Part shown: in pieces, positions 43,564-46,563 of the stretch
How positions within the stretch are numbered: position 1 is the first letter of the stretch
How the letters are laid out: each line of letters opens with the position of its first letter
Assembly (NCBI GenBank): GCA_031459765.1
Contig: JAVKHY010000001.1
Location: 468,156 to 532,155, forward strand
DNA: 64,000 nucleotides
Direction: 5' to 3'
Source of the DNA: Candidatus Kaftiobacterium secundum
GTDB lineage: Bacteria > Sysuimicrobiota > Sysuimicrobiia > Sysuimicrobiales > Kaftiobacteriaceae
The notes under the pieces: generated by a model
What the model saw: only the letters and a program-made list of their open reading frames with translations
Database searches by the model: none
What the model was told of the DNA's origin: nothing
Made by a program: the position numbers and the translations under genes

Positions 43564-44853
43564 TCACGCGCCGGATTCCCCAATTTGAGGTACCCGCTGC
43601 ACAGTTCCCCAGGGAACGAAATACACTAAGCCACGATCCGACATCTGACGCAACATGAACGAAAACTCCGCGGCAGTCACCCCGGCTCGCCGCCAGAGTT
43701 CCGTCGAAAGCTCGTGAAGCGTAAGCCTTCCGTCAACGCTCAACCATATAAGTGCACCAGCGGCATTGAGGCGAAAAACCCGCTCCGTGTCAACGTCCAA
43801 TAGTACGAATGCCCCGGGGCGGACTCGCAGGTACACTACCCCCGGAGCTCGAACGGGAATCAACGAGACGTCTTCCTCAGGGTTGGCAGCAATATACGCG
43901 TTGCTCACGAACCCGCTACGACGCAACCGGCAAATGCTCCCTGCAATGTCAGCGTAAGGGTAAGGGAGAGCTACTAAATCAGCATCCCGGCGTGGAATCT
44001 GCTTCGTCCCAAAACTATGAGAGTATACGCGGTGCAAGACCGCGGCATCGACTCGCGAGAGCAATACGAGGTGTCGATACCCGACATGGTAAGCGACAGC
44101 AACCGGTCCTCTTGCGCCGCTCAGAGGATCCTCGGGCATGTCCCGGAGTTCGAACCATTTGTTCCCTTTCGGAATTTGGCGTGAAGGCTTAACCCCGGCC
44201 TCTTGATAACAGGAACGCAGGAAGTTCCACTCTTCCCAGCGCTCCTTGAACCCCAGGGTCCGCTTTAGGGGGACACGTCCCACTACTCTGTAGGCTTCAT
44301 CGATCAAATCCTGACCGACCCATCGCCTTAATATTTCCGCCGCGGTCTCCTGACTCAGCCCCTGCTCCACTTCGTATCTGCGCTCTGGGCTCAGCTCATC
44401 CTCGTCTGCAGGCGGAAGAATGTGAACACCGAAGCGCGCAGGATCCTGCGCGACGCGCGAAAGCACGTCCAACCGAAAGATACCCACCCCATTGGAGCAG
44501 TGCTGGTTTCCAAATTCGCGGGTCGTTAGCTTTGATATTTCGTCCAGGAAGGTAAGAGTCCGTTCTGCATCCTCGGCTGTTTCGCCGGGGAATCCCAGGA
44601 AACAGAATAAGTGATAACCAATGCCTCTTGCTAAGCATCGTTTCAGAACAGGAACTATGTCGGCAAGTTTGACCCCTTTGTCCATGAGATCAAGAACTCG
44701 TTGATTGTAGCTCTCCAACCCGAACTGGATGATTCGCATACCCGCTCGCGCTAACTGAGCAACCAAATCCTCGTCAAGGTTCGGGTTGAAGCGGGTCTCC
44801 CCGTACCACCGGAGCACAAGCGCCTGATCGAGAATACTGCAGGAGAAGCACAA
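43564..44853 (-). pseudogene. 5'-truncated radical SAM enzyme fragment with C-terminal PqqD-like RRE domain
   Basis: radical SAM C-terminal half (FGLESYNQRVLDLMDKG) and RRE-like tail (VFRLNAAGALIWLSVDGRLTLHELSTELWRRAG); frame closed by TAA at 44860..44862 so the Cys-triad N-terminus is absent. Confidence 0.6.
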
Positions 44854-44889
44854 TGCCCTTTACTTTACCTTCGTCGATGAGACGCTTGA

Positions 44890-46563
44890 ACCAGGCATAC
44901 TCCGTCGGCTGTCTGCATCTTAGGGCTGTGGGACGAGGCCGCCATCCTGGTGTTCCTCTACGCGGTCGCCGAAGGCCTGGAGGAATATGCCTATGCGCGG
45001 ACGCGGTCGGCCATCCGCGCCCTTCTGGACCTGGCGCCGAAGGAAGCGACGGTCCTCCGCGACGGACGGGAAGAGACCATCCCGGCGACCGAGCTGAAAC
45101 CGGGAGACAGATTTGTTGTCCGGCCCGGGGAGGCCCTGGCCACAGACGGCATCATCCGGGATGGGGCCTCGGCCCTCGACGAGTCGCCGGTCACCGGCGA
45201 ATCGATGCCGGTGGAGAAGGGGCCCGGGAGCGCCGTATTCGCCGGGTCCGTCAACAAGCAGGGCGCCCTCGTCGTTGAAGCGACCGCGGCGTTCGAGGAC
45301 AACACGCTCTCCAAGATCATTCACCTCGTGGAAGAAGCGCAGGAGCGGAAGGGGCGGCTGCAGCGGTTCATCGAACGCTTCGGGAACCGCTACACGCCGG
45401 CGGTCCTGGTGGCCGCCGGCCTCCTCCTGCTGATTCCACCGCTCTTCGGGCAGCCGTTCCTCCCGTGGGCGGTCCGGGCGGTTGTGCTTCTGGTGGCGGC
45501 GGCACCCTGCGCCCTGGTCATGTCCACCCCGGTAGCCGTGGCCGCGGGCATCGGCACGGCCGGGCGGCATGGCGTCCTCATCAAAGGCGGACTGCACTTG
45601 GAGAACCTCGGCCGGGTGCAGGTCGTGGCCTTCGACAAGACCGGCACCCTCACCGAGGGGAAGCCCGAGGTGACCGATGTTCTCCCGGCGGCGGGAACCA
45701 CGCGCGAGGAACTCCTGGCTCTGGCGGCGAGCGTCGAACAGCGTTCAGAGCACCCGATCGGCAGAGCCATTGTCGGGCGCGCCGAGGAGGAGGGGGTCGC
45801 ACTCCAGCCCGTACATGAGTTCGAGGCGCTGACCGGCTTGGGCGCGAAGGCCCGGATGAGTCGGACCGAAGTCTTTGTCGGCAGCCCGGCGCTTCTCGCA
45901 GAGCGGAAGATTCCCCTTGGCGAGATTCAGTCTGAGGTGGAACGACTCCAGGCGGAAGGGAAGACCGTTGTCGCGGTGGGCAAAGACCACTCCCTCGTCG
46001 GCCTGCTCGCGCTCCGCGACCGGGTACGTCCGGGAGCCAGGAAAGTACTCCGGTCGCTTGAGCAGGTTGGGGTCAAGGTCGCCATGCTGACGGGAGACAA
46101 CGAGCGGACGGCGGCGGCGATCGCGAAAGAGCTTGGCATCAGGCACTTCCATGCCGGGCTCAGGCCGGAGGAGAAAGTCCAATACGTCAAGCGGATGGAA
46201 CGGGAGCTCGGCTCCGTCGCCATGGTCGGCGATGGAATCAACGACGCGCCGGCCCTCGCCGCGGCGACCGTCGGGATCGCCATGGGGGCGGCGGGAACCG
46301 ACGCGGCCATCGAAGCGGCGGATGTTGCCCTCATGGCCGACGACCTGGAGAAGGTCGTCTACGCCGTCCGGCTTGGGCGAGTAGCGCGGACGATCAGCAC
46401 CCAGAACATCGTCTTCTCCCTGCTGATCCACAGCGTCTTGATCCCCGGGGCGTTGATCGGCGTCCTGTCAATTATCCTGGCGGTTGCAGCCCATGAGGGC
46501 AGCGAGTTGCTGGCGGTTGCGAATGGGCTCCGGGTCGCCCGCTACCGGGCAGCGCGGCCCTGA
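44890..46563 (+). pseudogene. 5'-truncated P1B-type heavy-metal ATPase (APC transmembrane motif)
   Basis: TGES, DKTGTLT, GDGIND, APC motifs; homology starts mid-helix (GLWDEAAILVFLYAVAEGLEEYA) just after a stop at 44887..44889; no N-terminal TM/MBD region. Confidence 0.65.

What the first reader, a model, noticed from the sequence alone, without database searches (positions are those of the whole stretch)
44853..44950. Sharp junction that 5'-truncates two divergent genes at once (radical SAM fragment and P1B ATPase) at the GC boundary
The minus-strand radical SAM-RRE frame is closed by a TAA at 44860..44862 just upstream of its first codon, so it lacks its Cys-triad N-terminus. About 30 nt away the plus-strand P1B ATPase homology begins mid-transmembrane-helix right after an in-frame TGA (44887..44889), so it lacks its N-terminal membrane/metal-binding region. 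The composition switches from lower to high G+C across the same about 40 nt. Both 5' ends and promoters of divergently oriented genes are missing, which points to a deletion or recombination breakpoint, or alternatively a chimeric assembly join.
Basis: seen in the sequence. Interest (0 to 1): 0.55.

Follow-up and report, generated by a model that had tools for sequence, protein, structure and literature searches.

The report
Foreign-DNA scar truncating two genes
This is the real right-hand edge of a 7-kb patch of foreign DNA that replaced the start of a metal-pump gene in an uncultivated hot-spring bacterium, leaving two dead gene stumps joined through a small flipped fragment; it is an ordinary kind of genome scar.

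Summary

The junction is real. It is 100% identical in five per-run assemblies and in a second MAG.

A close relative (L003) is collinear with the window on both sides. Against it, window 37857-44915 (7,059 bp, GC3 0.55-0.63 against 0.83-0.94 in host genes) replaces 797 bp. Those 797 bp hold the spacer after tRNA-Asn, arsR and ATPase codons 1-93.

The patch starts exactly at the tRNA's CCA end. It holds:
- an IS701-like transposase stump;
- an intact IS3-family element with a TATT target duplication;
- a RiPP-type operon (B12-type radical SAM-RRE, MFS, SPASM radical SAM, PqqD, GNAT).

The stretch between the two stumps is not anonymous. Plus-strand 44837-44914 encodes family-HMM positions 355-380 of the same radical SAM gene, and the minus-strand stump starts at position 381. 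So the 26 codons just upstream of the cut are flipped and fused to ATPase codon 94.

The most likely cause is one complex deletion with template switching. That is inferred, not shown. Both genes are recent pseudogenes (ATPase dN/dS 0.11, no internal stops). This is a known kind of event, of low interest.

The parts
37782..37856 (+). tRNA-Asn (GTT). Its CCA end is the exact left edge of the replaced segment.
   Evidence: ARAGORN. Identity to L003 stops after ...GGAGCCA at 37856.
37857..44915 (.). 7,059-bp mosaic patch of lower G+C. It replaces 797 bp of the relative L003 (positions 9485-10281): the spacer, arsR and ATPase codons 1-93.
   Evidence: blastn and base-level alignment to L003. GC and GC3.
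38203..38419 (-). 5' stump of an IS701-like (DDE_5) transposase gene. Only the first ~78 of ~480 codons remain, with a frameshift near 38280.
   Evidence: phmmer hits to the N-termini of 479-482-aa proteins that carry PF13546. tblastn shows only residues ~3-80 are present.
38840..38859 (+). Possible remnant of the ancestral spacer that follows the tRNA in the empty site. It matches L003 9486-9504 at 19 of 20 positions.
   Evidence: Local alignment score 33, against 19.9 +/- 2.1 (maximum 29) in 200 shuffles of the patch. This is suggestive only.
39174..40395 (+). Intact IS3-family insertion sequence. orfA is 39255-39521, with the A AAA AAG slippery site at 39509-15; orfB runs to 40369. It has 13-bp perfect terminal inverted repeats (TGACCTGCCCCCC) and a 4-bp target duplication TATT (39170-73 and 40396-99). 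It sits in the last codons of the GNAT gene.
   Evidence: Sequence. End alignment. Pfam rve/rve_3/HTH_21. NCBIfam NF033516, E 1.8e-67. All Logan contigs break inside its end at 40367.
40400..44835 (-). Promoterless remainder of a RiPP-type operon. Genes: GNAT to 40942, PqqD-like 40992-41315, radical SAM/SPASM 41321-42277, MFS 42291-43547, and the C-terminal 60% of a B12-type radical SAM-RRE fusion 43564-~44835.
   Evidence: Pfam, NCBIfam, gene calls in L009. The same gene set is found in distant clusters. GC3 is 0.55-0.63.
44837..44914 (+). Inverted piece of the same radical SAM gene. It reads LQEKHNALYFTFVDETLEPGILRRLS, which is family-HMM positions 355-380. In an intact gene these codons lie immediately upstream of the stump, which starts at HMM position 381.
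   Evidence: Family HMM against all 1,364 six-frame segments of the window gave only two hits: this one (E 3.5e-5) and the stump (E 8e-57). blastp places it at the cognate position in 24 homologues.
44831..44836 (.). Joint J1: head-to-head fusion of the 5' end of the inverted piece with the 5' end of the stump. Up to 5 nt (AGAAT / ATTCT) could belong to either side.
   Evidence: Reading of both frames against the homologues. It cannot be fixed more precisely without a close intact donor.
44915..44916 (.). Joint J2: the 3' end of the inverted piece fused to the third base of ATPase codon 94.
   Evidence: Base-level alignment: identity to L003 10282 onward starts at 44916.
44916..46563 (+). P1B-type heavy-metal ATPase lacking its first 93 codons. 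The frame is open, DKTGT, APC and HEGSE are present, and it is 94.6% identical in DNA to the intact relative.
   Evidence: dN/dS against L003 is 0.11 with dS 0.17.

Best explanation
The junction is a genuine rearrangement scar in the genome of a Tengchong hot-spring MAG. NCBI labels the MAG Armatimonadota. Its reads belong to the CSP1-3 / Sysuimicrobiota project.

Ancestral state. As in the close relative L003, the order was tRNA-Asn, a 115-nt spacer, arsR, then a 642-aa P1B metal-efflux ATPase.

Present state. In this lineage 7.06 kb of foreign, lower-GC DNA lies between the tRNA's CCA end and ATPase codon 94. It is a decaying patch of mobile-element remnants plus a RiPP-type operon. The 797 bp that held the spacer, arsR and ATPase codons 1-93 are gone.

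How the right-hand joint looks. The event cut the first gene of the foreign operon, a B12-type radical SAM-RRE enzyme, at family-HMM position 380/381. It flipped the 26 codons just upstream of the cut and fused them to the ATPase.

Consequences (inferred).
- The ATPase has lost its regulator, its promoter, its start and the membrane helices before the actuator domain.
- The radical SAM enzyme has lost its B12 domain, its Fe-S Cys triad and its promoter.
- Both are recent pseudogenes.

Mechanism (inferred, about 45% likely). One complex event. Replication or repair synthesis switched to the opposite strand at a short inverted microhomology and copied about 80 nt backwards until it reached the stall point. 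It then jumped several kb to the ATPase. This is a deletion with an inverted templated insert, of the FoSTeS/MMBIR type.
For: Shown:
- Collinearity with L003. Window 28410-37856 matches L003 10-9484 (85%). Window 44916-46571 matches 10282-11937 (94.6%). Window 47387-52091 matches 12784-17453 (85%).
- The left edge is at the tRNA-Asn 3' end.
- GC3 is 0.55-0.63 in the patch genes and 0.83-0.94 in host genes. The inverted piece has G+C 0.51, like the patch.
- HMM coordinates abut: 355-380 on the plus strand and 381-555 on the minus strand. These are the only two family hits in all six frames of the 64 kb, and blastp agrees.
- No arsR, no ATPase residues 1-93 and no radical SAM HMM positions below 355 occur in the window.
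- The DNA is identical in five per-run assemblies and in a second MAG over 21 kb. The MFS protein lies on 16 contigs, 10 of them longer than 50 kb; one of these long contigs was shown and 9 were listed as similar places not shown.
- The ATPase remnant has an open frame, with dN/dS 0.11 and dS 0.17 against the intact gene, so there is little decay since the cut.
- Intact relatives of the radical SAM gene are 527-693 aa and sit in clusters with SPASM radical SAM, PqqD, MFS and GNAT genes.

Inferred:
- A single event is favoured because both two-step routes need two independent breakpoints to fall within about 3 codons of each other.
Against: - No close intact donor of the radical SAM gene exists in the databases. 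The best non-self hits are 31-46% identical, and the 46% hit covers only half of the query. The native sequence across J1 and J2, and therefore any microhomology, cannot be verified.
- The inverted piece scores only E 3.5e-5 on its own.
- No integrase and no second copy of the tRNA 3' end were found. How the patch first arrived is therefore open: site-specific integration at the tRNA followed by decay, or direct illegitimate replacement.
- The left part of the patch is itself a mosaic. That shows several events have hit this locus, so a multi-step origin of the right joint is not excluded.
- Raw reads were not inspected directly.
Confidence: 0.8

Rival explanations
1. Assembly chimera: two unrelated genomes were joined by the assembler at about 44850-44920.
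For: There is an abrupt G+C switch and two truncated genes at one point. The source is a metagenome-assembled genome.
Against: - The joint is 100% identical in Logan contigs built separately from five runs and in a second MAG over 21 kb.
- Both sides of the patch are collinear with one contig of a relative, so a chimera would need two joins that return to the same backbone.
- No repeat is shared between the two sides that could mislead a de Bruijn assembler (patch against window: self-hit only).
Confidence: 0.03
2. Two separate events. Either a large inversion with breakpoints in the radical SAM gene and in the ATPase, followed by a deletion of everything between the first joint and the last 80 nt. 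Or a plain deletion followed by an in-place inversion of the terminal 80 nt.
For: J2 (the piece's 3' end joined to ATPase codon 94) is what one joint of such an inversion would look like. The locus has clearly suffered several events: the transposase stump, the IS insertion and a second replaced patch after the ATPase.
Against: The second event would have to end within about 3 codons of the first breakpoint, because the plus-strand piece ends at HMM 380 and the stump begins at 381. No trace of inverted ATPase 5' sequence or arsR remains.
Confidence: 0.15
3. The plus-strand piece is not an inversion. It is the leftover of a second, divergently oriented radical SAM paralogue of the donor cluster.
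For: RiPP clusters can carry several radical SAM genes. The piece is short (26 codons, E 3.5e-5).
Against: The piece covers exactly the family positions (355-380) that the stump lacks at its start (381). For an unrelated paralogue fragment that is roughly a 1-in-100 coincidence. Related clusters have a single gene of this family. The piece has the same G+C as the stump.
Confidence: 0.04
4. A simple frameshift or local shuffling: the missing ATPase 5' part is still nearby in another frame or position.
For: None found.
Against: tblastn with arsR and ATPase residues 1-110 of the intact relative finds only residues 94-110, at 44914-44964. Sensitive blastn with the 797 replaced bases finds nothing above chance except the 20-nt spacer match.
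Confidence: 0.01

Closest known systems
tRNA-adjacent genomic islands / integrative elements and their decayed remnants (established knowledge, not tested by name here)
   Same: Foreign composition. The edge is exactly at the 3' end of a tRNA gene. It carries IS elements and transposase stumps and an accessory biosynthetic operon. The locus is variable among relatives.
   Different: No integrase gene and no direct repeat of the tRNA 3' end at the far side. The far edge lies inside a chromosomal coding sequence, so at least that edge was made by illegitimate recombination or deletion, not by site-specific recombination.
Template-switch rearrangements: quasipalindrome or inverted-repeat template switching in E. 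coli, and FoSTeS/MMBIR complex deletions with inverted templated inserts (own knowledge of the literature)
   Same: A deletion joint contains a short insert that is an inverted copy of the sequence directly next to the joint. The insert ends where the retained sequence begins. A possible 5-nt inverted microhomology (AGAAT / ATTCT) lies at the switch point.
   Different: The mechanism is only inferred from the scar. Microhomology cannot be verified, because the native donor sequence is unknown. The second jump spans DNA of unknown length.
Illegitimate or homology-facilitated illegitimate recombination of incoming foreign DNA (own knowledge)
   Same: A foreign segment replaces a shorter resident segment. 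The joints do not respect gene boundaries.
   Different: No anchoring homology between donor and recipient can be shown. The higher identity to L003 around the tRNA (97-99%) and in the ATPase (93-96%) than in the backbone (71-92%) concerns relatives of the host, not the donor.
P1B-type heavy-metal ATPases under ArsR/SmtB control (TIGR01525; CadA/ZntA-like)
   Same: The remnant has the actuator domain, DKTGT, the HAD domain, and APC and HEGSE membrane motifs. It is 96% identical to an intact 642-aa protein that is preceded by an HTH_5 (ArsR-type) gene.
   Different: It lacks codons 1-93 (the helices before the actuator domain), its start, its promoter and arsR. It is a pseudogene, not a working member.

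Membership tests
P1B-type heavy-metal ATPase (TIGR01525) | Actuator (E1-E2) domain and HAD-type P/N domain with DKTGT | tested here: met
   PF00122 E 3.5e-57 and PF00702 E 3.5e-41. FDKTGTLT is present in the translation. TIGR01525 scores 605 bits against a cut-off of 346.
P1B-type heavy-metal ATPase (TIGR01525) | Complete membrane domain, including the helices N-terminal to the actuator domain | tested here: not met
   Homology starts at residue 94/95 of the 642-aa relative, inside the hydrophobic stretch 78-113. The helix at ~22-48 and the first half of that stretch are absent. The TIGR01525 profile is matched from position 13, against position 1 in the intact protein.
B12-binding (class B) radical SAM RiPP maturase with RRE | CxxxCxxC Fe-S triad and N-terminal B12-binding domain | tested here: not met
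   Pfam Radical_SAM is matched only at positions 88-166 of 166. TIGR03975 is matched from position 348 of 606. The family HMM is matched from 381, plus the inverted 355-380; nothing below 355 occurs in the window.
B12-binding (class B) radical SAM RiPP maturase with RRE | C-terminal half of the radical SAM barrel followed by a PqqD-like RRE domain | tested here: met
   PF04055 E 2.5e-10 and PF05402 E 1.4e-7 at residues 352-412. Alignment to the 474-693-aa homologues.
Integrase-mobilised tRNA-site genomic island | Boundary at the 3' end of a tRNA gene, with foreign composition | tested here: met
Integrase-mobilised tRNA-site genomic island | Integrase gene, and a direct repeat of the tRNA 3' end (attR) at the far edge | tested here: not met
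   No integrase family appears among the patch ORFs. The 25-nt tRNA 3' end occurs once in the window, even allowing 3 mismatches. Both could have been deleted.
IS3-family insertion sequence | orfA/orfB with an A AAA AAG frameshift site, an rve DDE domain, terminal inverted repeats and a short target duplication | tested here: met
   NF033516 E 1.8e-67. rve/rve_3. The A AAA AAG frameshift site was read directly in the sequence. The 13-bp perfect inverted repeats and the TATT duplication come from the end alignment.
Template-switch (FoSTeS/MMBIR-type) rearrangement | An inverted insert templated from sequence adjacent to the joint | tested here: met
   HMM positions 355-380 on the plus strand abut 381-555 on the minus strand.
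Template-switch (FoSTeS/MMBIR-type) rearrangement | Microhomology at each switch point, and origin in a single event | tested here: inconclusive
   A 5-nt overlap at J1 is possible, but the native donor sequence is unknown. Single-event origin cannot be tested from one end state.
Assembly chimera | The joint is supported by one assembly only, and the flanks come from different genomes | tested here: not met
   Five per-run assemblies and two MAGs are identical. The flanks are collinear with one relative contig.

The most novel reading that the evidence does not exclude
The joint is the intact footprint of a single fold-back / template-switch event that welded horizontally acquired DNA to the chromosome in an uncultivated thermophilic phylum. 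In addition, the tRNA-Asn-arsR-ATPase unit is itself an exchangeable cassette. It is 95-100% identical in three different genomic contexts, while the backbones are about 85% identical. That would make this tRNA a recombination hot spot whose variants could be followed across the Tengchong time series.
Probability: 0.35. Interest if true: 0.3.

Novelty: new member of a known kind. Interest (0 to 1): 0.2.

Why it matters
For annotation, the 537/548-aa 'ATPase' and the 417-aa 'PqqD family chaperone' in these MAGs are gene stumps. They should not be counted as a metal-efflux pump or as a RiPP maturase. This lineage has lost the arsR-ATPase unit that its nearest relatives keep.

For method, the case shows that a sharp compositional step with two truncated genes in a MAG can be told apart from a chimera using public per-run assemblies and a collinear relative.

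For mechanism, the flipped 26-codon piece is a tidy natural example of a deletion joint with an inverted templated insert. Nothing here changes what is known about islands, IS elements or P1B ATPases.

Tried and rejected
- Small ORFs of 37857-39172 were scanned against Pfam, NCBIfam, PHROGs and PADLOC, with no hits. Only a phmmer search of the 79-aa ORF identified it, as a DDE_5 transposase N-terminus.
- A second copy of the tRNA 3' end (attR) was sought and not found.
- arsR and the ATPase 5' part were sought in the window and not found.
- Other copies of the IS, or of any patch sequence, were sought in the window and not found.
- The single genome-contig scan, with the intact ATPase P0002, did not return the window's own genome (best hit 72%). 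It therefore could not say whether the missing 5' part lies elsewhere in the MAG.
- DNA of the contig with the best full-length radical SAM homologue (P0123) could not be fetched; only its gene list was available.
- IS-mediated adjacent deletion as the origin of the right joint was rejected, because no IS end lies at 44831-44916.
- A hairpin snap-back of a broken end was rejected, because it would give piece plus inverted piece (a palindrome), which is not there.
- The 16-nt similarity between 37858-37873 and the IS left end was considered as a solo inverted repeat and left open. No orfA-like coding follows it.
- A metagenome DNA scan for an un-inverted donor was not run. The protein search had already shown no homologue more than 46% identical outside this population.
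Full report
**Observation**

On the minus strand, the ORF 43564-44853 is preceded in frame by TAA at 44862-44860. Its product matches only positions 88-166 of the 166-position Pfam Radical_SAM model, followed by a PqqD domain at residues 352-412. It also matches positions 348-477 of the 606-position TIGR03975 model for RiPP-maturation radical SAM C-methyltransferases.

On the plus strand, the ATPase frame carries TGA at 44878-80 and 44887-89. It then reads ...ILGLWDEAAILVFLYAVAEGLEEY, followed by a full actuator domain and HAD domain.

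G+C is 0.552 over 40396-44833 and 0.677 over 44916-46563.

**Source and reality of the joint**

The truncated radical SAM protein is found on NCBI GCA_031459405.1, contig JAVKIQ010000005.1 (166.8 kb, labelled Armatimonadota). This is the window's source. The same protein lies on Logan contigs assembled separately from five runs, SRR27730035, -36, -39, -41 and -43.

The 601 nt from 44600 to 45200 are 100% identical in four of these contigs. In the fifth they are identical up to its end at 44945.

A second MAG (GCA_031459255.1, JAVKIX010000010.1) is 100% identical to window 32291-53547. That stretch includes the whole patch and the IS. The MFS protein of the patch lies on 16 contigs, ten of them longer than 50 kb. 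One of these long contigs was shown, and nine were listed as similar places not shown.

The runs belong to PRJNA973840, Tengchong hot springs and enrichments, the CSP1-3 / Sysuimicrobiota study (PMC11604079).

An assembler artefact is thus very unlikely. I did not see the reads themselves.

**What was there before**

The closest full-length ATPase (P0002, 642 aa, 96% identical) lies on a 139.5-kb JGI contig, fetched as L003. The window and L003 are collinear on both sides:

| Window | L003 | Identity |
|---|---|---|
| 28410-37856 | 10-9484 | 85% |
| 44916-46571 | 10282-11937 | 94.6% |
| 47387-52091 | 12784-17453 | 85% |

In L003 the order is tRNA-Asn, a 115-nt spacer, an ArsR-type (HTH_5) gene of 128 aa, then the ATPase. 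Base-level alignment puts the left break directly after the CCA end of tRNA-Asn (GTT) at 37856. The right break falls between 44915 and 44916, at the third base of ATPase codon 94.

So window 37857-44915 (7,059 bp) replaces 797 bp that held the spacer, arsR and ATPase codons 1-93. Neither arsR nor ATPase residues 1-93 are encoded anywhere in the 64 kb.

The break lies in the hydrophobic stretch 78-113 of the intact protein. TIGR01525 is matched from profile position 13, against position 1 in the intact relative.

**What the patch is**

Host genes have GC3 of 0.83-0.94. The four patch genes measured (GNAT, radical SAM/SPASM, MFS and the radical SAM stump) have GC3 of 0.55-0.63. From left to right the patch holds the following.

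1. About 350 nt with no recognisable coding.
2. The first ~78 codons, with one frameshift, of an IS701-like DDE_5 transposase gene on the minus strand (38419-38203). Its full-length relatives are about 480 aa.
3. A 20-nt stretch (38840-38859) that matches, at 19 of 20 positions, the first bases after the tRNA in L003. Its score is 33, against 19.9 +/- 2.1 in shuffles. This may be a remnant of the old spacer. If so, 37857-38839 was a separate, earlier insertion.
4. An intact IS3-family element, 39174-40395.
   - orfA and orfB with an A AAA AAG slippery site.
   - 13-bp perfect terminal repeats, TGACCTGCCCCCC.
   - A TATT target duplication.
   - It sits in the last codons of a GNAT gene.
5. On the minus strand, GNAT, a PqqD-like gene, a radical SAM/SPASM gene, an MFS_3 transporter and the radical SAM-RRE stump.

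Distant intact clusters carry the same set. One has a 685-aa radical SAM, a SPASM radical SAM and PqqD. Another has a SPASM radical SAM, PqqD, a 55-aa ORF, a B12-binding gene plus a 527-aa radical SAM, a methyltransferase, MFS_3 and GNAT.

The stump is therefore the first gene of a RiPP-type operon that has lost its promoter side.

**The hidden structure of the joint**

In another plus-strand frame, 44828-44920 reads SRILQEKHNALYFTFVDETLEPGILRRLSAS. In the homologues, the stretch just before the point where the stump begins reads LQRKHGARYFFFVDETFEVPAMERV (P0123) or LQEKYNCNYFFFTDEALPINFLK (P0144).

I built an HMM from the 27 homologues and searched all 1,364 stop-to-stop segments of the six frames of the window. 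Only two segments hit:

- the stump, HMM positions 381-555, E 8e-57;
- this plus-strand segment, residues 4-29 (44837-44914), HMM positions 355-380, E 3.5e-5.

So the 26 codons that natively precede the cut are present but inverted. Their 5' end abuts the 5' end of the stump (joint J1, about 44831-44836). Their 3' end abuts ATPase codon 94 (joint J2, 44915|44916).

At J1 both readings fit the homologues: RILQEK on the plus strand and ILDQ on the minus strand. Up to 5 nt (AGAAT / ATTCT) may therefore be a shared inverted microhomology. Without a close donor this cannot be checked, because the best non-self homologues are 31-46% identical and the 46% hit covers only half of the query.

**Mechanism**

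This section is inference. A plain deletion would leave the piece in its native orientation. There are two possible two-step routes:

- a large inversion followed by a deletion;
- a deletion followed by an in-place inversion.

Each needs a second, independent breakpoint to fall within about three codons of the first, because the HMM coordinates abut at 380|381.

A single event explains the geometry without that coincidence. A nascent strand stalls at the start of the stump and pairs with a short inverted repeat about 85 nt ahead on the opposite template. It copies back towards the stall point, which is why the piece ends where the stump begins. It then restarts several kb away, in the ATPase.

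This is the pattern known from inverted-repeat template switching and from FoSTeS/MMBIR-type joints (my knowledge of that literature, not tested here). I give it about 45%. I give the two-step routes together about 15%. The rest is unresolved.

How the patch first arrived is also open. It may have integrated at the tRNA and then decayed, or it may have replaced the resident segment directly by illegitimate recombination. No integrase and no attR repeat remain.

**Age and consequences**

The ATPase remnant is open over 548 codons. It differs from the intact L003 gene with dN/dS 0.11 at dS 0.17. Almost all of that divergence accrued under selection, so the cut is recent.

The ATPase remnant lacks its regulator, promoter, start codon and N-terminal helices. 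The radical SAM stump lacks its B12 domain and Cys triad. Both should be treated as pseudogenes, which is an inference from domain content. This lineage has lost the arsR-ATPase unit that its relatives keep.

**Comparison with known things, and verdict**

The locus behaves like a decayed tRNA-adjacent genomic island, but it fails two defining tests (integrase and attR). The IS is a regular IS3-family member. The ATPase and the radical SAM gene are members of their families by sequence, but both are incomplete.

The joint resembles template-switch scars. It is a new instance of known kinds of events, not a new kind. Interest is low (0.2). The value lies in correct annotation, in a worked example of separating a real breakpoint from a MAG chimera, and in a clean natural template-switch-like scar.

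Noticed in passing
L002 9405-9493 compared with L003 and L007; window 37777-37856: tRNA-Asn is a synteny break in the relatives too. The ENA contig L002 is 99.9% identical to L007 left of the tRNA and 100% identical to L003 from 5 nt before the tRNA onward. It is either a natural recombinant or a chimeric contig joined at the shared 80-nt tRNA.
   Followed up: partly
window 10703-37776: Window 2631-10702 is homologous (73-77%) to the genes that lie directly left of tRNA-Asn in L002 and L007. The window and L003 therefore carry about 27 kb between that block and the tRNA that the other relatives lack. This stretch includes the sugar-binding protein, GH20, permeases, DUF4127-GrpB and an FAD oxidoreductase.
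   Followed up: partly
window 37370-37856 and 44916-46571: Identity to L003 is 97-99% just left of the tRNA and 93-96% in the ATPase, but 71-92% in the surrounding backbone. This suggests recent exchange of the tRNA-arsR-ATPase unit among related lineages.
   Followed up: partly
window 46572-47386: There is a second replaced patch directly after the ATPase stop. The window has an 84-aa ORF (46593-46847, no family hit) and a minus-strand glyoxalase/3-dmu-9_3-mt-like gene (46876-47292). L003 has 68-aa and 159-aa ORFs there. Window 46658-46849 matches L002 12445-12636 at 82%.
   Followed up: partly
window 38637-38903 (+): An 88-aa ORF (MTDQLLVVQFPHPGHEHGSDWDNVKEWNVGRHARKF...) has no hit in Pfam, NCBIfam, PHROGs or PADLOC. 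It runs across the 20-nt spacer-like match, so one of the two may be a chance feature.
   Followed up: partly
window 37858-37873 and 39172-39187: The first bases after the tRNA (TTAGAACGGCCCCCCG) resemble the left end of the IS3-family element (TTTGACCTGCCCCCCG, 81%). This may be a solo terminal repeat of a related IS. No orfA-like coding follows it.
   Followed up: partly
L008 12528-13875 (window about 40943-42290): The NCBI records of both MAGs list no gene for the radical SAM/SPASM and PqqD-like ORFs. The record of the second MAG lists none for the radical SAM stump either. Logan gene calls do list them. These may have been set aside as pseudogenes by the annotation pipeline.
   Followed up: no
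window 45500-45560 and 46440-46500 (ATPase remnant): The membrane metal-site motifs are APC (instead of the usual CPC or SPC) and HEGSE. Together with the short N-terminus lacking an HMA domain, this looks like a P1B-4-like subgroup (classification from memory, not tested).
   Followed up: no
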